A DNA stretch of 64,000 nucleotides from Chiloscyllium plagiosum. Its lineage: Eukaryota. The notes beneath the pieces were generated by a model that was given only the letters and a program-made list of their open reading frames with translations, was not told the DNA's origin and did not search any database. The stretch is from positions 67,596,408 to 67,660,407 of the forward strand of contig NC_057718.1 of NCBI RefSeq assembly GCF_004010195.1, given 5' to 3'. Positions 640-44,233 of the stretch are shown piece by piece. A program made the position numbers and the translations under genes. Position 1 is the first letter of the stretch; every line of letters starts with the position of its first letter.

Positions 640-1445
640 TGAGATTGTTGACTGAGCTGGTAAGTTTGTTTGCAGATATTTCATCACCAAACTAGGTAAT
701 ATCATAAGTGCGCCTCCAGTGAAGCATTGGTGTTCTGTCCTGCGTGCTATTTATGTGTCCTGGTTTGCTGAGGTGGGTGGTATCATTTCCAGTTTTGTTT
801 CTTAGTGGTTGGTATATGGGGTCCAACTCTACATGTTCGTTAATGGTGTTCTAGGTTGAGTGCAAGGCCTCCAGGAATCCCCTAACATAGCTTTGTTTGG
901 CCTGTCCTAGGATGGATATGTTGTCCCAGTCGAATTGGTGTCCTTCTTTATCTATGTGTATGGACATAAGTGATTATTGACCATGTCTCTTGGTGGCTAT
1001 GTAAAGACTGCCAGAAACATTACATAGGGCAAACCAGAAGAAAACTAACCATCAGGGTACACGAACACCAATTGGACACTAAGAGATATGATCTACTATC
1101 ACTTATTTCCAAATACACAGATGAGGATGGACACCAATTCAAATAAAGACATGTACAGGAATTCCTGGAGGCCTGGCACACAACCCGGAGCTTCATTAAC
1201 AAAAATATAGAGTTATACCCCATATACCAACTCCAAAGAAACAAAACTGGAAATGATACCCACCTCAGCAAACTGGGACACATAAATAGCAAGCGGGACA
1301 GAACACCAATGTTTCATCGGAGGTGCACTGATGATGTTACCTAGAATGGTGATGAAACAACTGCAAATTAGCTTACCAACTCAGCAAGCAAATCAACAAC
1401 CTCATCCACAACCTGAGCTACAAATCTTTCCAAGAACTTCAAAGT
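640..1445. mobile_element. Penelope-like element family B, inverted arrangement (minus arm ~640-1000, plus arm ~1000-1445)
   Basis: Plus arm encodes C..C..HYIGQTRRKL..RVHEH and EFLEAWH (GIY-YIG C-terminus). Minus arm encodes HQFDWDNISILGQAK..DPIYQPL. The arms are diverged reverse complements. Confidence 0.85.
1325..1364 (+). ncRNA. Degenerate minimal hammerhead motif (family B)
   Basis: GCA-CUGAUGA-U-GUUACC-uagaau-GGUGAU-GAAA-caac-UGC; reverse copy at 672-711. Confidence 0.6.
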
Positions 1446-1788
1446 TTCTGGGTCATAGAGTCACAGAGATGTACAGCACGGAAACAGACCCTTCGGTCCA
1501 ACCTGTCCATGCCGAGCAGATAGCCTAACCTAACCTAGTCCCATTTACCAGCACTTGGCCCATATCCCTCCAGCCCCTTCCTATTCATATTCCCATCCAG
1601 ATGCCTTTTAAATGCTTTAATTGTACCAGCCTCCACCACTTCCTCTGGCAGCTCATTCCATACACGGATCACCCTCTGCGTGAAAAGGTTGCCCTTTAGG
1701 TTCCTTTTAAATTTTTCCCCTCTCATCCTGAACTTATACTCTCTAGTTTTGGACTCCCCCACTCCAGGGAAAACATCTTGTCTATTTA

Positions 1789-2024
1789 GAGCTGAAAATG
1801 TGTTGCTGGAAAAGCGCAGCAGGTCAGGCAGCATCCAAGGAGCAGGAGAATTGACGTTTCGGGCATGAGCCCTTCTTCAGGAAGAAGCCCTTCCTGAAGA
1901 AGGGCTCATGCCCGAAACGTCGATTCTCCTGCTTCTTGGATGCTGCCTGACCCGCTGCGCTTTTCCAGCAACACATTTTCAGCTCTGATCTCCAGCATCT
2001 GCAGTCCTCACTTTCTCCTAGAAG
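1789..2024. mobile_element. Short PLE-derived (family A) inverted-repeat element with two hammerhead motifs
   Basis: Arms ~1788-1883 and 1891-1986 are near-perfect reverse complements. 14-bp TSD atcttgtctattta at 1775-1788 and 2025-2038. Confidence 0.9.
1891..1925 (+). ncRNA. Minimal type I hammerhead motif (family A)
   Basis: UUC-CUGAAGA-A-GGGC-ucau-GCCC-GAAA-CG-UC-GA; predicted cleavage after C1921. Helix I is only ~2 bp; activity untested. Confidence 0.65.
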
Positions 2025-4361: not shown

Positions 4362-5200
4362 AGGCAAAAGTGAAGACTGCAGATGCTGGAAAACAGAGTT
4401 TAGATCAGAGTGGTGCTGGAAAAGCACAGCAGGTCAGGCAGCATCCGAGGAACAGGAAAATCAACATTTTGGGCAAAACCCCTTCATCAGGAATAGAGGC
4501 AGGAAGCCTCCAGGGTGCAGAGATAAATGGGGGGACTGGGGAGAAGGTAGCAAAGAGTACAATAGGTGAATGGGAGTGGGGATGGAGGTGATAGGTCAGA
4601 GGGGAGGGTAGAGCGGATACGTGGGAAGGGAGATTGGCAGGTAGGACAGGTCATGAGGACTGTGCTGAGCTGGAAGGTTGGAACTGGGGTAAGGTAGGGG
4701 GAGGGGAAATGAGGAAACTGGTGAAGCCCACATTGGTGCCCTGGGGTTGAAGTGTTCCGAGGCGGAAGATGAGGCGTTCTTCTTCCAGGCATCGGGTGGT
4801 GAGGGAGCGGCGGTGAAGGAGGCCCAGGACCTGCATGTCCTCGGCAGAGTGGGAGGGGGAGTTGAAATGTTGGGCCATGGGGTGAATGTGGTTGATTGGT
4901 GCGGGTGTCCCAGAGATGTTCCCTGAAGCACTCTGCGAGAGGCGTCCAGTCTCCCCAATGTAGAGGAAACCGCATTGGGAGCAACGGATACAATAAATGA
5001 CATTCACCTATTGTACTCCTTGCTACCTTCTCCCCAGCTCCCACCACCTCCCCACCCCCCCACCACCACCATTTATCTCTCCACCTTGGAGGCTTCCTGC
5101 CTCTATTCCTGATGAAGGGCTTTTGCCTGAAACATCAATTTTCCTGCTCCTCGGATGCTGCCTGACCTCCTGTGCTTTTCCAGCACCACTCTGATCTAAA
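4362..5200 (-). mobile_element. Penelope-like element family A, 5'-truncated, with an inverted terminal copy (~5003-5200)
   Basis: NVIYCIRCSQCGFLYIGETGR (GIY-YIG endonuclease). 14-bp TSD ctcttataatttat at 4348-4361 and 5201-5214. Degenerate hammerheads at ~4462-4494(-) and ~5105-5137(+). Confidence 0.92.
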
Positions 5201-6107: not shown

Positions 6108-8050
6108 GTAGTGGACAGCGAAGAAGATTACCTCAGATTACAATGTGATCTTGATCAGATGGCCGCAATTTCCCCACCCATGTGGTTGAAGATGCCCTCC
6201 AATGCATCTCATCCATGTCCCGCACCTCCGACATCAAACCCTACCCCTCTAACCGCAACAAGGACAGAACCCCCCTGGTGCTCACCTTCCACCCTACCAA
6301 CCTCTGCATAAACTGCATCATCCACCGGCATTTCCACCACCTACAAACAGACTTCACCACCAGGGATATATTTTCCTCCCTACCCCTATCCGCTTTCCGC
6401 AAAGACTGTTCCCTCCGTGACTACCTGGTCAGATCCACGCTCCCCAACAATCCACCCTCCCCTCCTGGCACCTTCCCCTGCCAACGCAGGAATTGCAAAA
6501 CCTACGCCCACACCTTCCCCCTCACTTCCATCCAAGGCCCCAAAGAAGCCTTCCACATCCATTAAAGTTTCATCTGCACTTCCATAAATGTCATTTATTG
6601 CATCCGTTGCTCCCGATGCGGTTTTCTTTACATTGGGGAGACTGGATTCCTTCTCGGAGAGCGCTTCAGGGAACACCTCTTTGACACCTGCACCAATCAA
6701 CCCCACTACCCCGTGGCCGAACATTTCAACTCCCCCTCCCACTCTGCTGAGGACATGCAGATCTTGGGCCTCCTCTACTGCCATTCCCTCACCATCTGCA
6801 CCTGGAGGAAGAACGTCTCATCTTCAATCCCAGGGCATCAATGTGGACTTCACCAGTTTCCTCATTTCCCTTCCCCCCCACCTTTCCAATGTTCGAAACT
6901 TCCGGCTCAGCCGCATCTTTATGACCTATCCCACATGTCAATCTTCCTTCTCACTTATCCGCTCCACCCTCCTCTCTGACCTCTCACCTTTATCCCCACC
7001 TCCATCCACCTATTGAACTCCCAGTTATGTTCTCCGCAGCCCCACACCCTCCCATTTATCTCTCCACCCCAGAGGCTTCCAGCCTCATTCCTGATGAAGG
7101 GCTCCTACCTGAAACATCGATTTTCCTGCTCCTCAGATGCTGCCTGACCTGCTGTGCATTTCCAGCACCACTCTAATCTTGACTCTAATTTCCAGCATCT
7201 GTGGTCCTCACTTTCGCCTCTTGATCAGATGGGCCAATGGGCTGAGGAGTGGCAGATGGAGTTTAATTTAGATTAATGTGAGATGCTGCACTTTGGAAAA
7301 ACTTATATACTTCATGGTAAGGTCCTCATGAGTGTTGCTGAACAAAAAGACCTTGGAGTGCAGGTTTATTGTCCCTTGAAAGTAGAATTGCAGGTAGATA
7401 GGATAGTGAAAAAGGCATTTGGTGTTTTCCTTTAATGGTCAGAGCATTGAGTATAGGAGTTGGGAGGTCATGTTGCAGTTGTACAGGGCACTGGATAGGC
7501 TACTGTTGGAATATTGCATGCAATTCTGGTCTCCTTTCTATTAGAAGGACGTTTTGAAACTTGAAAAGGTTTAGAGGAGATTTTTAAGGATGTTGCCGAG
7601 TTGGAGGATTTGAGCTATAGGGAGAGGCTGAATCGGCTGGGGCTGTTTTCTCTGGAGTATTGGAGACTGAAGGGTGACTTTACAGAGGTTTATAAAATCA
7701 TGAGGGGCATAGATAGGATGAATAGACAAAATCTTTTCCCTGGGGTCGGGGAGTACAGAACTAGAGGGCATAGGTTCACGGTGAGAGGGGAAAGGTATAA
7801 AAGAGACCTAAGGAGCAACTTTTTCATGCAGAGGGTGATGTGTGTATAGAATGACCTGCCAAAGGAAGTAATGGAGGCTGGTACAATTATAGCATTTAAA
7901 AGGCATCTGGATGGGTATATGAATAGGAAGGGTTTACAGGGATACGGGCCAAGTGCTGGCAAATGAGACTAGATTGGATTAGGAAAACTAGTCGACATGG
8001 GCGAGTTGCATCTGAAGGGTTTGTTTCCATGCTATACATTTCTATGACTG
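6108..8050 (+). mobile_element. CR1/HER1 LINE 3' ~0.9 kb with a nested PLE
   Basis: DSEEDYLRLQ.DLDQ and LSYRERLNRLGLFSLE..RL.GD..EVYKIMRG motifs; ctctatgac tail. Confidence 0.92.
6163..7218 (+). mobile_element. Penelope-like element family A, 3' ~1 kb
   Basis: RTPLVLTFHP..PGTFPC.RRNCKT and frameshifted VIYCI.C..YIGET. 14-bp TSD tcttgatcagatgg at 6149-6162 and 7219-7232. Degenerate hammerhead at 7087-7120. Confidence 0.92.
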
Positions 8051-18696: not shown

Positions 18697-18832
18697 GTAG
18701 TCAAGAGTGTGGTGCTGGAAAGACACAGCAGATCAGGCAGCATCCAAGGAGGTTGCTGCCCGACCTGCTGTGCTTTTCCACTGCCACACTCTCGACTCTG
18801 ATCTCCAGCATCTGCAGTCTTCACTTTCTCCT
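18697..18832. mobile_element. Short family-A PLE palindrome lacking the hammerhead
   Basis: Inverted arms around ~18750; TSD attttgagggc at 18686-18696 and 18833-18843. Confidence 0.8.
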
Positions 18833-23100: not shown

Positions 23101-23720
23101 TGAGAGCAGATTCAAAATAGAGAAAAGCTTGAAATGGAAGACACTAAACTGATCTGTTTTTGAAGGTAGAGGAAACAAAGACTAGAAAATAGTTAACAAG
23201 GATGTTTAGCAGTGCGAGATGACATTCTTCAATGCAAGAAAGTAGTTAAATTTAGAATGTTATGGAAAGAGGGGAGGAATGAAAAATACCTCTGAGAATT
23301 CTTGAATGGGGAAAAGCTAATTTTCTAAGCTGAAATATGGTTTAGCTGATGTTGACTGGAAACAGATATGTGAAGGTAAATCATCTCCAGATTAGTTGGA
23401 GAAACCTGACAGATAATGAATGTATGGATTAAGTATGTTCCCTTAAGAAAGAAGGTAAGATTAAAAAATTTAAACCCCTCCTGGGTGTGGAAGGGCATAA
23501 AGAAGAAGAAGATAATAGAGTTTGTACAGAGGACTATGGAATTCAAATGGTAACAAAGCGTGGTTAAAGTAGCAGATAAGAATGAAGTAAGCACCTCTTT
23601 AGAACTTGAATATCTTCACTCTTCGGTCCAAAAAAATGTCTGTTTGGAAACTGTGCTTTTGTCGTGTGACTTCGGATGTGGAAATAAATCCAGCCTAATA
23701 CTCTGGTGACTGTTATAACC

Positions 23721-23850
23721 GGAGGAGAAAGTGAGGTCTGCAGATGCTGGAGATCAGAGCTGGAAATGTGTTGCTGGAAAAGCGCAGCAGGTCAGGCAGC
23801 ATCCAGGGAACAGGAGAATCGACGTTTCGGGCATAAGCCCTTCTTCAGGA
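23721..23850 (-). mobile_element. 130-bp family-A hammerhead-headed non-coding element
   Basis: 12-bp TSD actgttataacc at 23709-23720 and 23851-23862. Minus strand begins UC-CUGAAGA-A-GGGC-uuau-GCCC-GAAA-CGUC. Confidence 0.9.
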
Positions 23851-24229
23851 ACTGTTATAACCAAAGACTTAGGATGCAGCAAGTATTTTTAGTTTGTGCT
23901 GTTTACACTTTTTTTGTGTTGTTGAGGATAGGGAGGGTTAGCCAAATTATTTTATTGAAACGAGTGGTGAAAGTAATGATTTTGTAGCTTATTCTATTAT
24001 TTTAGGGTTTTCAATGTGGTTCAGCTATAAATTGCCATGCTTCTAATTATTTGAACTCAATTATAAAATAGTCCCAACATGATATAGAGGCTTGCATTAT
24101 AACCGGAAACATTTGAATTTTTAAAATAGTGTTTGTGAAATGTTAGTTTAGCTGCACACAGTCACCATATTCACATTAGTCATTTTCAGGTTTTGAACAG
24201 TTTATCAACATCAACTATTTTTGCCTTGA

Positions 24230-24600: not shown

Positions 24601-24750
24601 AGCTAACCTAAATGCAGAAAATGTTGTTTTCTTATAATGAGATAAAACATTATTATAGTTTATTTTGAAATTATTGCTCTTTAGATTTTATGATGTATTT
24701 GAAACCTGATATTATTTTCCAGTTATACTGCACAATGGGAGTGGAACTTT

Positions 24751-25069
24751 GGGGCAACACGGTGGCTCAGTGGTTAGCACTGCTGCCTCACAGCGCCAGA
24801 GACCTGGGTTCAATTCTCGCCTCAGGCAACTGTTTGTGTGGAGTTTGCATATTCTCCCCGTGTCTGCGTGGGTTTCCTCCAGGTGCTCCGGTTTCCTCCC
24901 GCAGTCCAAAATGTGCAGGTCAGGTGAATTGGCCATGGTAAATTGCCCGTAGTGTTAGGTGAAGGGGTAAATGTAGGGGAATGGGTCTGGGTGGGTTGCT
25001 CTTCGTAGGGTCAGTGTGGACTTGTTGGGCCGAAGGGCCTGTTTCCACACTGTAAGTAATCTAATCTAA
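24751..25069 (+). mobile_element. Full-length HE1-type V-SINE
   Basis: A box tggctcagtgg, B box ggttcaattc, V-domain, tail gggccgaagggcctgtttcc..(taatc)n. Confidence 0.92.
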
Positions 25070-28799: not shown

Positions 28800-29415
28800 G
28801 AAACTCGTACATCCCAAGTGGTTGGAATACTGTGTCCTGTTCTGGTTGCCCACTTATAGGAAGGATAATATCGAACTGGAGAAATTTACCAAGATGTTGC
28901 TGGGTATGGAAGGTTTGAGTTATAAAGAAAGGCTGGGACTTTTTTCATTGGAGTGTAGGAGGTTGAGAGACAATCTGATAGAAGTTTATAAAATAAAAGG
29001 GTGGCACGGTGGCTTGGTTAGCACTGCTGCCTCTCAGCGCTAGGGACTGGGTTCAATTCTACCCTCGGGCGACTGTCTGTGTGGCTTTCCGGATTTCCGC
29101 CTGGTGCTCCAGTTTCTTCCCACAGTCCAAAAATATGCAAATTAGGTGGATTGATAATGCTAAATTGTCCATTGTGTTCAGAGGTATGTAAATTAGGTGT
29201 GTTAGCCTTGGGAAAGTGTAGGGGGATGGTTCTGGGTGGGATGCTCTTCAGAGGGTTGGTGTGGATTTCTTGGGTTGAATGGCTTGTTTGCACACTGCAT
29301 GGATTCCAATCTATAATGAGATATATAAATAGAGTTAATAGTAGCTGTCTTTTCCCTCGGATGGGGGATTTCAAGACTAGGGGGACTTTTTTTAAGGTGA
29401 GAGGAGAGTTTTTTT
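28800..29415 (+). mobile_element. CR1 fragment with a nested HE1 SINE (~28998-29313)
   Basis: EYCVLFW.P.YRKD..EVYKI is interrupted at tataaaat and resumes at ataatgag. Confidence 0.85.
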
Positions 29416-30723: not shown

Positions 30724-30763
30724 GCAGATGTTTCATCACCATGCCAGGTGACATCATCAGTGT
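30724..30763 (-). ncRNA. Hammerhead motif in a family-B PLE terminal fragment (~30690-30800)
   Basis: ACA-CUGAUGA-U-GUCACC-uggcau-GGUGAU-GAAA-CA-UC-UGC. Confidence 0.65.
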
Positions 30764-36649: not shown

Positions 36650-38355
36650 ACAAAGTGTAGTCAACAGAATCACAGATAATGGCACATCCCTACATGAGGA
36701 CCTCAATGCATTAGACACTCAATTTGAACAGAAGATCAGTGGAACAATATCCACCTATTCCAACGGCCTCGTATGCACCTGTACCCACCATCACTATTGC
36801 AGATGTTAAATTGGCCTTTTCAAGAGTAATCTCAGAGAAAGCGAGTGGTCCAGAATGGAGTTCTGGCTCTGCAGTCATATCCTGTAATATTTACAGACAT
36901 CTTTAACATCTCCTTACTATGTTCTGAAGCCGCCATCTGCTTCAAGAAGATCACCATCATCCTAGTACCAAAGAAACATCATGCAGCGTACGTCAATGAC
37001 TACTGTCCGGTGGCCCTGACCTCCATAATTGTAAAGTTCTAAGAAAAGGTAGGCATGGCACACATCAACTCCAGCCTCCCAGTCTGCCTTGGTCCCTTGT
37101 AGTTTGCCTACGTGTGCAACAGATCCACAACGGAAGCTATTTCTCTGGCCCTGCACTCATCCCTGGAATATCTGGATAACAAAGATACCTATGGTGGCTC
37201 AGTGGTTACCACTGCTGCCTCCCAGTGCCAGGGACCCGGGTTTGATTCCAGCCTCTGGTGACTGTGTGGACTTTGCACATTCTCCCAGTGGCTGCTTGGG
37301 TTTCCTCCTGGTGCTCTAGTTTCTTCCCACAATCCAAAGATGTGCAGGTCGGGTGAATTGTGTTCAGGGATGTGTGGGTTAGGGATAAGTTACTATTTGG
37401 AGAGTTGATGTGGACTCTATGGTTCTATGTCAGGCTCCTACTTATTGACTACAGTTCCGCCTTTAACATCATAATTCCAAATAAACTCATCTTTAAACTC
37501 AGAGACCGAGGTTTTGGCTACCCCTTCTGTAACTGAATCCTCAACTTCCTGACCCATAGACCGCAATCAGTAAGAATAGGCATCAACACCTCCTCCACCA
37601 AAGTCCTCAGCACCGGCGCCCAGTAAGGCAATATAATCAACCCTTTACTAGACTTGTTATACACACAACTGTGTGGCCAAATTCTGCCCTGACTCCATTT
37701 ATAAGTTGGCTGATGATACCATCATTGTAGGTCGGAACAGTGACAAGACAGTCCAGGAAATAGATTGAGTGCTTAGTGGCATGAAGCAATGGCAACCATC
37801 TCTCCATCAATGTCAGCAAAATGAAGCTGGCCATTGACTCCAGGAAGCAGAGTGGAGGGCAAGTCTCTGTCTGCATCAGTGGTGCTGATATGGTCAAGAG
37901 TATCAGGTTTCTGCAAGTGATGACTACCAACAATCTGTCCTGGTCCACCAAGGTCGATGTGATGGTCAAGAAAGCAGAACAATGTCTATTGCCTCAAGAG
38001 GCTAAGGAAATTTGACATGTCCGCAAGGACTCTTGCCACTTTTACAGATGTGCCATAGGTTGCTTTCTATCTGGATGTTTCACAGTGTGGTACGGCAATT
38101 GCTCTTCCCAAGAAACTATAGAGAGTTGTAAACACAGCCCAGACCATTATACAAAGCAGCCTTCCATCCATTGACTCCATCTAACTGCCCACTGACTCAC
38201 GAATGCAACCAACATACTCAAAGACCCTTTCCAATTTGGTTTTATGCTCTTCCTCTCTCTCTTCTGTCAGCTAAAAAAGATAAAAGTTTGAATACACATA
38301 TGGACAGATTCAATAACAGCTTCTTCCCTGCTGTTATCAGACTTTTGAACCTCTC
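36650..38355 (+). mobile_element. Rex1/Babar-like LINE remnant with a nested HE1-like SINE (~37191-37425)
   Basis: KITIILVPKK..NDYCPVALTS, YKLADDT, VKKAEQCL and DRFNNSFFPAVIRLLN motifs. Confidence 0.8.
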
Positions 38356-39394: not shown

Positions 39395-40710
39395 CAAGGA
39401 TCGGTGCTGGGTCCATTATTTTTCGTCACTTATTTAAATGATTTCATGTGACTGTAAGAGGTACAGTTATTAAGTTTGCAAATGACACCAAAATTAAAGG
39501 CGCAGTGCACAGCGAAGAAGGTTAGCTCAGATTACAATGGGATCTTGATCCGATGGGCCAATGGGCTGAGAAGTGGCAAATGGAGTTTAATTTAGAAAAA
39601 CATGAGGTGCTGCATTTTGGGAAACCAAATCTTAGCAGGACTTGTACACTTAATGGTAAGGTCGTAGGAAGTGTTGCTGAACAAAGAGACCTTGAAGTGT
39701 AGGTTCATAGCTCATTGAAAGTGGAGTCGCAGGTGGATAGGATAGTGAAAAGTGTTTGGTATGCTTTTGTTTATTGGTCAGAGTGTTGAATACAGGAGTT
39801 GGGAGGTGCGGCTGTACATGACATTGGGTTAGGCCACTGTTGGAATATTGTGTGCAATTCTGATCTCCTTCCTATCGGAAAGATGTTGTGAAACTTGAAA
39901 GGGTTCAGAAAAGATTTACAAGCATGTTGCCAAGGTTAGAGAATTTGAGCTATAGGGAGAGGCTGAACAGGCTGGGGCTGTTTTCCCTGGAGCGTCGGAG
40001 GAGCGTCGGAGGCTGAGGGATGGCTTTATAGAGGTTTGTAAAATCATGAGGGGCATGGATAGGATAAATAGACAAAGTCTTTTCCCTGGGGTTGGAGAGT
40101 CCAGAACTAGTTTAGGGTGAGAGGGGAAAGATATTTGTGGGCGGCACGGTGGCACAGTGGTCAGCACTGCTGCCTCACAGCGCCAGAGACCCAGGTTCAA
40201 TTCCCTCCTCAGGCGACTGTGTGGAGTTTGCACATTCTCCCCGTGTCTGCGTGGGTTTCCTCCGGGTGCTCTGGTTTCCTCCCACAGTCCAAAAATGTGC
40301 AGGTTAGTGACTTGGCCAAGCTAAATTGCCCGTAGTGTTAGGCGAAGGGGTTAATGTAGGGGGGAATGGGTGTGGGTGGGTTGCGCTTTGGCGGTTCGGT
40401 AAGGACTCGTTGGGCCGAAGGGCCTGTTTCCACACTAAGTTATCTAATCTAATATAAAAGAGACCTAAGGGGCAACTTTTTCATGCAGAGGGTGGTACGT
40501 ATATGAAATGAGCTACCAGAGGAAGTGGTGGAGGCTGGTACAATTACAACATTTAAAAAGGCATTTGGATGGGTATATGAATAGGAAGAGTTTGGAGGGA
40601 TGTGGGCCGGGTGCTGGCAGGTGGGACTAGATTGGGTTGGGATATTGGTCAGCGTGGACGGGTTGAACTGAAGCGTCTGTTTATGTGCTGTATATCTCTG
40701 ACTCTGTGTA
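39395..40710 (+). mobile_element. CR1/HER1 3' fragment with a nested full HE1 SINE (~40138-40452)
   Basis: QGSVLGP, KFANDTK and WQMEFN motifs; the SINE interrupts gaaagatat|aaaagagacc. Confidence 0.92.
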
Positions 40711-41755: not shown

Positions 41756-41939
41756 TCAAACTTGCTAACACTGATTGCCACTATATCGGTACTATTGAAC
41801 AGCAGTCAGTGAGCTAATAAGTTGTAATAAGGTGCAGATTTGCGCATCTGAATCATCATTTTGATCGTTCTAATATTTTACTCCCTTTTGAAATACTTTC
41901 AAGTCAATCTACTGTTTATCTTGACGGTATTTTTAAGAG

Positions 41940-42068
41940 GAGAAAGTGAGGTCTGCAGATGCTGGAGATCAGAGCTGGAAATGTGTTGCTGGAAAAGCGC
42001 AGCAGGTCAGGCAGCATCCAGGGAACAGGAGAATCGACGTTTCGGGCATAAGCCCTTCTTCAGAGTTA
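41940..42068 (-). mobile_element. Family-A hammerhead-headed element, identical to the 23.7-kb copy over ~125 bp
   Basis: 11-bp TSD atttttaagag at 41929-41939 and 42069-42079; hammerhead at ~42032-42063. Confidence 0.9.
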
Positions 42069-42689
42069 ATTTTTAAGAGTTAATCACAAATCTTGGTTTC
42101 ACATGGCAATTGGATAGCTTAGTGGGATTTCACATTAACTGTAGTATATGCTGTATTTTATTAGTGAACAGTCCAGGTGTCCAGTGCTATTTTGCTTTGT
42201 TTTATTGTTTCCACCTATATCTACTTCTGTTCCTATTGAATGTGATATTTTGCATTTGGCATAAAATTGAACTTAACCAAGTACTGATCTAATTTGAATA
42301 GTATGTGTTCTGGTTCGGAACACAATTTCCCTTCAGCTGTTTGAATCAAACTCCTCCGATATTGCACTTGCAGATGAAAAGTGAACTTCCCTCCTCTCTG
42401 CTCCAAATTTGCTTGAAACTCAAAAACAAAATCTCCTTTTGTAATTGGGAACTTGATTTGTACAGAATTATAATTATACAAAAAAAGGCCATTTGACCCA
42501 TCATGTCTGCATGAGTGGCTTCACAGGAACTATCCTGTAACCATTGAGATTGAAATTATGCATTGGTAGTTCAAATCTATGCTTGCAGCTAAGTGGCACA
42601 GGATTGTTAACTGATTTCATTGAGTACTCTTGCAGGGAGTAGAAAAAAAGAGAGATTTTCAGTTCAGCGAGTTTTGTTAACATCCATTG

Positions 42690-43885: not shown

Positions 43886-44233
43886 GGGCAGCATGGTGGC
43901 TCAGTGGTTAGCACTGCCTCACAACGCCAGGGACACAGGTTCGCTTTCATCCTCTGGTGACTTTGTGTGGAGCTTGCAAACACCCTGTGTTTGAGTGGGT
44001 TTCCTCCGAGTACTCCGGTTTCCTCCCACAGTACATATATCTGCAAGTTAGGGGGATTGGCTGTGCTAAATTGCCCATCTTGTCCAGGGATGTGCAGGCT
44101 AGGTGGATTAGCTATGGGAAATGCAAGCCTATGGGCATAGGGCAGGCGCATGGGTCTGGGTGGGATGCTCTTTTGAGGTTCGGTGTGGACTGGACGAGCC
44201 AAAAGGCTTGTTTCCGCACTAGGGATTCTATGA
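43886..44233 (+). mobile_element. HE1-type V-SINE variant
   Basis: gggcagcatggtggctcagtggttagcactgc head, V-domain and tail. Confidence 0.85.

What the first reader, a model, noticed from the sequence alone, without database searches (positions are those of the whole stretch)
23721..23850. Young ~130-bp non-coding retroelement that begins exactly at a hammerhead core
Seen: 23724-23848 and 41939-42063 are identical by eye, lie 18 kb apart and have different TSDs (12 and 11 bp), so they are independent recent insertions. On the minus strand both begin within 0-2 nt of CUGAAGA-A-[GGGC uuau GCCC]-GAAA-CG-UC, and both arms of the 1789-2024 palindrome end at the same point. They carry variants (CUGAAGA, aaaagcgcagc, aatgtgttgct) that the GIY-YIG-coding copies at 4.4 and 6.2 kb lack (CUGAUGA, cacagc, gtggtgct). 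Known: Penelope-like elements carry minimal type I hammerheads, and non-autonomous ribozyme retroelements (retrozymes) exist in animals. Inference: four ends at one position suggest a defined-length, PLE-mobilised, ribozyme-headed element rather than random 5' truncation. The copies start upstream of the predicted GUC cut site, so simple self-cleavage does not explain the boundary. I cannot tell whether the family is already catalogued.
Basis: partly seen in the sequence, partly recalled or inferred. Interest (0 to 1): 0.75.

Follow-up and report, generated by a model that had tools for sequence, protein, structure and literature searches.

The report
Penelope leader copied to its cap
These 130-base inserts are not a separate mobile element but the hammerhead-bearing front end of a very abundant protein-coding Penelope-like retrotransposon; most sampled copies begin within about 25 bases of one spot, often behind an extra G, which likely marks where the copying enzyme ran off the capped start of the RNA.

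Summary
In detail: two 127-nt identical copies with different TSDs (12 and 11 bp) start at a minimal hammerhead core. The 130-mer has thousands of copies. The same sequence, with 0 mismatches in 125 nt, sits behind RT-coding DNA and in front of the ORF in other copies, so it is the leader/terminal repeat of a coding Neptune-type Penelope-like element, not a non-autonomous family. The boundary is real: 70 of 89 sampled copies end within -6..+20 of the A of ATTCC-CUGAAGA, and only 1 ends near the ribozyme cut site. A non-parental G precedes +1 in 37 of 100 copies (A 11, T 7), but not +2 (G 12, T 31). An Inr-like sequence lies at +1 and TTTATCT at -31. Best reading (0.7): internal priming at about +130 or +95 of a capped transcript, with run-off at its start; the ribozyme is likely a passenger. 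An older subfamily shows no G excess, and RNA reads did not show a start site. Eight paper searches found no description of this. The scan reported the same reading on other DNA.

The parts
23721..23850 (-). Copy 1: leader of a Penelope-like element, positions +3 to +131 (plus one extra base); a simple insertion with no inverted arm
23821..23848 (-). Minimal type I hammerhead core (CUGAAGA, bulged A, 4-bp helix II with UUAU loop, GAAA, palindromic ACGU, predicted cut after 23821)
   Evidence: descriptor in PMC4209133; cleavage untested
23709..23720 (.). 12-bp TSD of copy 1, left
23851..23862 (.). 12-bp TSD of copy 1, right
41937..42063 (-). Copy 2: leader +5 to +131, identical to copy 1 over 127 nt; 5 extra bases (42064-42068) at its 5' junction
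41929..41939 (.). 11-bp TSD of copy 2, left (last 3 bases also match the element's 3' end)
42069..42079 (.). 11-bp TSD of copy 2, right
1788..1883 (-). Palindromic insertion, short arm: +2 to about +97 (second 3' end site); UCAU-loop variant, 95% identical to copy 1
1891..2019 (+). Palindromic insertion, long arm: +2 to +130; the whole insertion is flanked by a 14-bp TSD (1775-1788, 2025-2038)
4367..5189 (.). Older CUGAUGA subfamily: head-to-head pair of 5'-truncated copies that read through the hammerhead into the 3' UTR (the minus arm on into GIY-YIG sequence)
   Evidence: (I12); GIY-YIG read by eye
6175..7220 (+). Older subfamily: 5'-truncated coding copy (decayed GIY-YIG region, 3' UTR, hammerhead at 7088-7120, tail)
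   Evidence: the left boundary and the decayed frame were read by eye

Best explanation
The 130-mer is the hammerhead-bearing leader of a protein-coding Penelope-like retrotransposon, and the short copies are likely run-off cDNAs: reverse transcription is likely primed inside the leader and likely stops at the capped first base of the RNA. Shown: the same sequence lies behind the 3' UTR of RT/GIY-YIG-coding copies and in front of the ORF (first ATG of the frame at +167); 3' ends cluster at +129..+133 and +91..+98; 5' ends cluster at -6..+20; a non-parental G is enriched only before +1. Inferred: (1) Pol II starts at the A of TC-ATTCC, using a TATA-like box at -31 supplied by the upstream partial tandem copy, so the RNA begins with hammerhead helix I. 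(2) The RT-endonuclease nicks the target (TSD mostly 13-16 bp) and primes at about +130 or +95, as shown in vitro for the Anolis element. (3) The leader occurs at both ends of the RNA: priming on the rear copy gives long, randomly truncated copies, and priming on the front copy gives at most about 130 nt and copies the cap as an extra G. (4) When both nicks prime, two short cDNAs join head to head through microhomology, giving the palindromes with one 35-nt tail. (5) The template is uncleaved RNA. The window's copies have lost part or all of the 5' strand of helix I and the upstream promoter, so they are probably dead ends.
For: Coding link: L004 (GIY-YIG region, 3' UTR, 130-mer); L186 (gap-free YIDD, Cys linker, YIGET, 3' UTR, 130-mer with 2 mismatches); L202 gap-free and L184/L030 across a gap, 0 mismatches in 125 nt; L140 0 mismatches and runs into the ORF. 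RT family hit RVT_1 E=1e-8 on L197, found with the same RT 30-mer. 5' ends of 89 loci: 70 in -6..+20, 5 at +35..+61, 7 upstream of -6, 7 at assembly gaps. Base before +1 in the first 100 non-read-through matches, tallied by eye: C 45 (parent base), G 37, A 11, T 7; control before +2: C 57, T 31, G 12; Fisher test on G:T p=1e-7. In 63 junctions where the base cannot come from the inverted arm: G 25, A 5, T 6, C 27; p=1.6e-7 against flank composition. 4,426 G-ATTCC copies genome-wide. TTTATCT at -31 in three young subfamilies, two sharing an upstream spacer and one with a different spacer, and at -32/-33 in 3 old copies. All 8 of 30 ORF-start loci that reach a sense hammerhead stop there (read by eye). 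Inverted arms in 57 of 84 loci, 45 of them ending at +91..+98. In Anolis PAc, priming is internal, 111-118 nt past the start of helix II (here 116-120), both strands are extended, and uncleaved RNA is the dominant substrate (PMC11167929). A 5' G is attributed to cap copying in L1/SVA insertions (PMC3287187). The D. virilis Penelope start site lies in the pLTR (PMC2377424).
Against: No direct start-site data: one poly(A) single-cell run of a same-label organism gave no place where many molecules begin, and its reads are mostly read-through of inserted copies; the second run laid 0 reads. About half of the clustered ends (33 of 70) lie at +7..+20 rather than at +1. The parental C before +1 is itself twice background (27 of 63), and 25 of 100 junctions keep the parental TC, so the edge is not one base. 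In the older CUGAUGA/UUUU subfamily the pile-up is weaker (5 of 30 loci end at -6..+1) and G is not enriched (4 of 33 non-parental junctions, by eye). Read-through copies are common genome-wide: 9,097 against 9,989 counted (about 12,000 estimated) that stop at -8..+1. Assembly gaps under-represent long copies. No intact full-length copy was found. The GIY-YIG Pfam score (22.4 bits) is just under its cut-off.
Confidence: 0.7

Rival explanations
1. Roadblock: all copies are primed on the rear leader of a long RNA, and the reverse transcriptase stalls at a hammerhead-protein complex, then adds a non-templated base.
For: 33 of 70 clustered ends lie at +7..+20, in and next to helix II. The Anolis hammerhead is protein-assisted (PMC11167929). 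Ends tail off to -6.
Against: The largest peak lies beyond the hairpin, not in front of it. The extra G is specific to +1. The older subfamily has the same fold but far more read-through. A TATA-like box keeps a fixed distance of -31.
Confidence: 0.13
2. Capped short RNAs made in trans: the start site is right, but the templates are transcripts from 5'-truncated copies that kept the -31 box and read into flanking DNA, not the coding mRNA.
For: About 9,100 copies read through at least 9 nt upstream, many far enough to keep the box. All other signatures would be the same.
Against: The Anolis protein needs RNA about 55 nt beyond the priming site (first 172 nt of the ORF, PMC11167929), which such copies lack. 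Chimeras in which ORF sequence joins ATTCC show ORF-bearing templates in use. 3' transductions of shared flank were not seen in the 89 loci (by eye).
Confidence: 0.1
3. A separate non-autonomous, retrozyme- or SINE-like family that copies itself.
For: Very young and abundant: 35 of 67 short copies match the window copy exactly over +21..+125. Length is nearly fixed. A true deletion-derived tandem unit exists in a sister subfamily.
Against: The same sequence is part of coding copies. No private shared variants: the commonest recurrent changes are at the CpGs of ACGUCG, at most 4 of 67. 5' ends are ragged and differ between copies. The window's copies are not tandem.
Confidence: 0.04
4. Ribozyme processing (linear or circular cleavage products) defines the unit.
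For: The core letters and helix II are kept while the loop varies (UUAU, UAAU, CUGU, AUGU, UCAU, UUUU), which suggests selection on the ribozyme in master copies.
Against: The cut lies between +32 and +33; 1 of 89 copies ends within 3 nt of it. Tandem-like junctions land on ATTCC, not on the cut site. In Anolis no RNA reads begin or end at the cut (PMC11167929).
Confidence: 0.03

Closest known systems
Poseidon element of Anolis carolinensis, PAc (PMC11167929; parts 1-2 of 4 read; text search of supplements gave no hits, Fig. S2 not visible)
   Same: GIY-YIG/RT element with a hammerhead at the pLTR-ORF junction; two internal priming sites that bound the tail; priming about 115 nt past the start of helix II; both strands extended; uncleaved RNA used.
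   Different: There the ORF starts at helix II; here the first ATG of the frame is at +167. The parts read do not map the RNA start or describe cap-marked short genomic copies.
EN+ PLE insertions with inverted pLTR and 30-40-bp tail (PMC8557442, PMC3846280; passages read)
   Same: 5' truncation, inverted partner at the 5' end, tail on one arm only, TSD, solo pLTRs. The Cys motif between RT and endonuclease fits the Neptune/Nematis description.
   Different: PMC3846280 explains head-to-head palindromes by self-priming on an antisense template and solo pLTRs by recombination or deletion. Here solos carry TSDs and, often, an extra G at one position, which points to sense-strand run-off products.
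Drosophila virilis Penelope promoter (PMC2377424; parts 1 and 3 of 4 and passages)
   Same: Transcription starts inside the pLTR formed by a partial tandem; 34-37-bp tail repeat.
   Different: It is described as TATA-less with a downstream element and a 5' intron; here a TATA-like box sits at -31 and no intron was looked for or shown.
Minimal hammerheads of metazoan PLEs (PMC4209133; parts 1-2 of 4)
   Same: Core boxes, bulged base before helix II, G10.1-C11.1, palindromic helix III remnant, mostly dispersed single motifs.
   Different: That paper treats single motifs as probably truncated PLEs and proposes cleavage-derived circles as templates; the end map here excludes the cut site as the boundary.
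Animal non-LTR retrozymes (10.64898/2026.07.22.740005; parts 1-3 of 5; supplements closed)
   Same: pLTR-derived, hammerhead-bearing, non-coding; monomers dispersed.
   Different: Defined as tandem repeats with a hammerhead in each unit. The window's copies are single or head-to-head and are not distinct from the coding element.
Cap-derived 5' G of full-length L1/SVA insertions (PMC3287187; passages); minus-strand strong-stop DNA of LTR elements (recalled)
   Same: An untemplated G at the 5' junction marks copying to the capped RNA end; priming near the RNA front gives a short fixed-length cDNA.
   Different: L1 primes at the RNA 3' end, so the G marks rare full-length copies. Here it marks the shortest and commonest copies. 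No strand transfer was shown.

Membership tests
EN+ Penelope-like element (Neptune type) | RT domain with DKG motif in the parent element | tested here: met
   RVT_1 E=1.1e-8 and the ADKGG motif in L197; the same RT 30-mer lies 1.0-1.1 kb upstream of the 130-mer in L186 and L202. L197 itself is not shown to carry the 130-mer.
EN+ Penelope-like element (Neptune type) | C-terminal GIY-YIG endonuclease in the same frame | tested here: met
   L186: YIDD to YIGET...RFREH in one open frame; Pfam GIY-YIG E=1.5e-4, 22.4 bits against a cut-off of 22.6
EN+ Penelope-like element (Neptune type) | Extra Cys motif in the RT-EN linker (Neptune/Nematis) | tested here: met
   C-x4-C-x2-C before the endonuclease in L186 and L197, read from the translations; definition from a PMC8557442 passage
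EN+ Penelope-like element (Neptune type) | RT phylogeny places it in the clade | not tested
   No tree with named PLE references was built
EN+ Penelope-like element (Neptune type) | pLTR/inverted partner, 30-40-bp tail, TSD | tested here: met
   57 of 84 loci have an inverted arm; 3' ends at +91..+98 and +129..+133; TSD of 9 bp or more found in 62 of 89, 51 of them 13-16 bp
EN+ Penelope-like element (Neptune type) | Intact full-length ORF copy | tested here: inconclusive
   None among 30 ORF-start and 30 RT loci; many have assembly gaps
Minimal type I hammerhead ribozyme | Core boxes, helix II, palindromic helix III remnant | tested here: met
   helix II is in the predicted fold, though the 131-mer as a whole is not unusually stable (z=0.05)
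Minimal type I hammerhead ribozyme | Helix I of 4-5 bp | tested here: inconclusive
   Parent: AUUC/GAUU has 3 pairs and a U-U mismatch; the sister subfamily has a perfect AUUC/GAAU. Window copy 1 keeps 2 pairs and copy 2 has lost the 5' strand.
Minimal type I hammerhead ribozyme | Self-cleavage (as a dimer or protein-assisted) | not testable with these tools
   Needs a cleavage assay; the predicted lowest-energy dimer fold was not the active fold
Non-LTR retrozyme | Head-to-tail tandem units, each with a hammerhead | tested here: not met
   The window's copies are single or head-to-head
Non-LTR retrozyme | Unit boundary set by ribozyme cleavage | tested here: not met
   1 of 89 ends within 3 nt of the cut
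Non-LTR retrozyme | Circular RNA | not testable with these tools
   The poly(A) reads showed no listed back-joint on the 130-nt reference; such a library cannot test this
Non-autonomous SINE-like family | Own lineage with variants absent from the coding partner | tested here: not met
   0 mismatches in 125 nt to coding-linked L184/L030, L202 and L140; no private shared variants in 67 short copies

The most novel reading that the evidence does not exclude
Penelope-like elements make a strong-stop cDNA as LTR elements do. The cap-ended leader cDNA is a normal intermediate that jumps to another RNA position (ideally the rear leader, whose end the hammerhead could cut) and so regenerates the pseudo-LTR and the promoter-bearing tandem. 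The thousands of 130-mers and palindromes would be jumps that failed. Chimeras in which ORF sequence joins ATTCC show that jumps from +1 happen. Against it, variants upstream and downstream of the hammerhead stay linked between subfamilies, so transfer between different masters is not seen.
Probability: 0.2. Interest if true: 0.8.

Novelty: new member of a known kind. Interest (0 to 1): 0.5.

Why it matters
How Penelope-like elements generate their inverted and tandem ends is described as still undefined (PMC8557442), and the role of their hammerhead is unknown. This family leaves tens of thousands of dated products that map the two priming sites and, likely, the capped RNA start to single bases. 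If right, it extends the in vitro internal priming of the Anolis element to the genome, puts the ribozyme at the very front of the mRNA, makes uncleaved RNA the template, and replaces antisense self-priming as the source of head-to-head palindromes. Each point can be tested with the existing in vitro system. In practice it warns annotators not to file such stubs as SINEs, MITEs or retrozymes. The element class and the insertion layout themselves are known.

Tried and rejected
DNA search of the genome with the 131-mer returned nothing because common words are skipped; exact patterns were used instead. Rfam: no hammerhead family matched; only two weak microRNA-model hits, one on the palindrome. 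Folding: the 131-mer is no more stable than its shuffles, and the dimer fold gave no active conformation. The look-up of sequencing runs: no RNA holder listed; not evidence on expression. Laying reads: X21 gave 2,218 and 763 reads on two references, with no start or end pile-up listed; loose ends peaked at +1 (71 reads) with unlike flanks, which repeats the genomic boundary in transcribed copies and does not show a start site; X22 laid 0. Start at the ribozyme cut: rejected (1 of 89). Target preference or arm microhomology as the source of the G: the +2 control and the arm-independent subset argue against it. Generality: the older subfamily did not show the G. Strand transfer between masters: no mosaics. 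The first end map (ungapped) misplaced four copies with indels; the gapped rerun aligned two copies (L089, L093) up to or across gaps, and they were moved to the gap class. L015 was dropped from the 90 loci as the second arm of L014. A Drosophila-type downstream promoter element at +28..+32 does not match (by eye; consensus recalled). Dfam and Repbase are not available here, so whether the family is catalogued is open.

Full report
Observation. The two stretches are identical over 127 nt (23722-23848 = 41937-42063) and have different TSDs of 12 and 11 bp. On the minus strand each starts at or just before CUGAAGA-A-GGGC-UUAU-GCCC-GAAA-CG-UC, a minimal type I hammerhead as described for Penelope-like elements (PMC4209133, parts 1-2 of 4 read). 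I number from the A of the parent's ATTCC-CTGAAGA as +1. Copy 1 starts at +3, copy 2 at +5, and both arms of the 1788-2019 palindrome (14-bp TSD) at +2. The predicted cut is between +32 and +33. An exact internal 34-mer has 4,646 matches in the 3.56-Gb genome and the reversed control has none.

It is part of a coding element. L004 carries a GIY-YIG region and 3' UTR that run directly into the 130-mer. L186 has one open frame from the RT motif YIDD through a C-x4-C-x2-C linker to YIGET...RFREH, then the 3' UTR and the 130-mer, without gaps; Pfam gives GIY-YIG at E=1.5e-4, just under the cut-off. L197, found with the same RT 30-mer, gives RVT_1 at E=1.1e-8 and has the DKG motif. The window's 125-mer is matched with 0 mismatches in L184/L030 and L202 (RT upstream) and in L140, where it runs on into an ORF whose first ATG is at +167. 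The 130-mer is therefore the leader and terminal repeat of a Neptune-type PLE (clade named from the linker motif per a PMC8557442 passage; no tree was built). The 4.4 and 6.2 kb copies in the window belong to an older subfamily. Short copies carry no private variants: 35 of 67 equal the window copy over +21..+125, and recurrent changes are CpG-type in at most 4. No intact full-length copy was seen among 60 coding loci, many of which have gaps.

The boundary is real. I took the first 91 listed matches of the 34-mer on contig C1, fetched 90 loci (the second arm at one locus was skipped) and dropped one more as the second arm of another, leaving 89. Gapped alignment to a natural copy puts 70 5' ends in -6..+20, 5 at +35..+61, 7 upstream of -6 (-12 to -517) and 7 at assembly gaps; 5 of the gap copies are shown to be long. 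One of 89 ends within 3 nt of the cut site. Copies that pass the hammerhead end at scattered positions from about -35 to -517 (30 loci, about half at gaps). Genome-wide, among arms with +1..+25 intact, 9,097 read through by at least 9 nt and 9,989 differ from the parent at -9. The latter is about 12,000 after allowing for chance matches, since 37 of 45 G-junctions in the same span were captured. A further 5,972 begin at +2. Read-through is thus 13-16% in my sample and probably higher overall; the anchor selects young copies with the long tail, and the assembly loses long copies.

The 3' side matches the known priming sites. 74 of 89 anchored arms end at +129..+133 (the anchor excludes ends before +101). 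57 of 84 loci have an inverted arm, 45 of which end at +91..+98. TSDs of 9 bp or more were found in 62 of 89, 51 of them 13-16 bp. The 35-nt difference is the PLE tail. In the Anolis element the tail lies between two internal priming sites, the main one 111-118 nt past the start of helix II; both target strands are extended; and uncleaved RNA is the dominant substrate (PMC11167929, parts 1-2 of 4; supplementary figures not visible). Here the main 3' end is 116-120 nt past the start of helix II.

A cap-like footprint at +1. In the first 100 non-read-through matches, the base before ATTCC is C 45 (the parent's base), G 37, A 11, T 7 (tallied by eye; a few palindromes count twice). Before +2 it is C 57, T 31, G 12 (by eye); Fisher p=1e-7 for G against T. 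I fetched the loci of the first 88 rows (and earlier loci; one further locus from row 99 was fetched but left out of the count). In the 63 junctions where the base is not supplied by the inverted arm, G is 25, A 5, T 6 and C 27, p=1.6e-7 against the flanks. Where a TSD abuts +1 directly, the last base is G in 6 (two are one duplicated event) and C in 3, never A or T; L235 has a single G between TSD and +1. An untemplated 5' G is attributed to cap copying in L1 and SVA insertions (PMC3287187, passages). TC-ATTCC fits the initiator consensus (recalled), and TTTATCT lies at -31 in 46, 7 and 27 contexts of three young subfamilies and at -32/-33 in 3 old ones (the lead came from e1-8021554). All 8 of 30 ORF-start loci that reach a sense hammerhead stop there, and many short insertions are chimeras in which ORF sequence is joined to ATTCC (by eye), as expected if the enzyme runs off at +1 and jumps. 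The D. virilis Penelope also starts inside the pLTR (PMC2377424, parts 1 and 3 of 4).

Results against. No RNA start site was shown: run X21 listed no pile-up of molecule ends, its reads are mostly read-through of inserted copies of related subfamilies, and X22 laid nothing. 33 of the 70 clustered ends lie at +7..+20; helix II microhomology between arms can explain many but not the simple insertions among them. The parental C and TC before +1 exceed chance, so starts may spread to about -6, or some ends come from the rear leader. In the older CUGAUGA/UUUU subfamily (20,271 matches) two thirds of 100 rows read through, 5 of 30 loci end at -6..+1, and G is 4 of 33 non-parental junctions, so the signature is not universal. 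Variants on both sides of the hammerhead stay linked between subfamilies, which gives no support to strand transfer between masters.

Mechanism. Most likely (0.7) a capped RNA begins at hammerhead helix I and carries the leader at both ends. Priming at +130 or +95 on the front copy gives run-off cDNAs of at most about 130 nt. One cDNA gives a simple insertion like the two in the finding; two, one from each nick, give a head-to-head palindrome like 1788-2019. Priming on the rear copy gives the long truncated copies. The end map, the G excess and the coding link are shown; the start site, cap copying and two-nick priming are inferred. Rivals: a roadblock at the hammerhead complex (0.13), capped transcripts of truncated copies used in trans (0.10), a separate non-autonomous family (0.04) and cleavage-defined units (0.03). 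The ribozyme's core and helix II are conserved while its loop varies across subfamilies, so it probably matters to master copies, but not for setting these ends.

Comparison and novelty. The element class, the minimal hammerhead, inverted partners, the tail and solo pLTRs are all described (PMC4209133, PMC8557442, PMC3846280). It fails the retrozyme tests (tandem units, cut-defined ends; 10.64898/2026.07.22.740005, parts 1-3 of 5, supplements closed). In eight searches and the texts read, I found no report that PLE stubs pile up at a capped start; most subscription papers, Dfam and Repbase were not searchable. This scan has noted the same reading in this and other genomes; I had reached it before those look-ups, and they are not independent evidence. 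Verdict: a new member of a known kind, with a testable and apparently unpublished clue to the replication cycle; interest 0.5. That the genome is a shark's is a resemblance recalled and echoed by earlier notes, not determined here.

Noticed in passing
L321-L340 (e.g. G000:C1:16163206, C1:26522131): In a sister subfamily (CUGU loop, perfect 4-bp helix I) a deletion joins the ORF start to -15 of the hammerhead, making a 224-nt unit. The junction has 40 exact matches genome-wide, and 6 of 19 distinct loci show consecutive hammerheads 224 nt apart. This looks like a true non-autonomous, retrozyme-like derivative.
   Followed up: partly
L040, L046, L050, L052-L054, L060, L125, L126, L128, L133, L135, L146, L148: Chimeric insertions in which 50-600 nt of ORF start is joined to ATTCC of a second leader, at a different ORF position in each locus, often with C or G before the A; these look like template jumps after run-off.
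   Followed up: partly
window 30730-30760, minus strand: Another hammerhead-like motif (CUGAUGA, 6-bp helix II, GAAA, CAUC) of a different family; similar motifs occur in three fetched loci.
   Followed up: no
L289 (G000:C2:117813000-117821000): A second PLE family with its own hammerhead (CUGAUGA-A-GGAGC-GUC-GCUCC-GAAA-GCUA); a palindromic insertion of the studied family sits inside its GIY-YIG region.
   Followed up: no
window 18708-18832: Small palindrome of an older subfamily whose two arms both end at about +45..+50, downstream of the hammerhead.
   Followed up: no
L291-L320; genome-wide pattern: The older CUGAUGA/UUUU subfamily is at least as abundant (20,271 matches) but mostly reads through the hammerhead and lacks the G excess; the balance between front and rear priming may have shifted between subfamilies.
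   Followed up: partly
read-through copies, -15..-11 and +41..+45: GGACA (or GAACA in the sister subfamily) upstream could pair with UGUUC downstream and extend helix I only in the rear leader, not in an RNA starting at +1; seen by eye, one one-sided change only, not tested.
   Followed up: no
window 24737-25051, 40124-40436, 29056-29296, 37169-37349, 43892-44220: A family of SINE-like repeats with a tRNA-like head (families D4, D6, D10, D15); the label is recalled, not tested.
   Followed up: no
window 645-1391: Inverted repeat pair (I20, I24), about 82-84% complementary; not examined.
   Followed up: no
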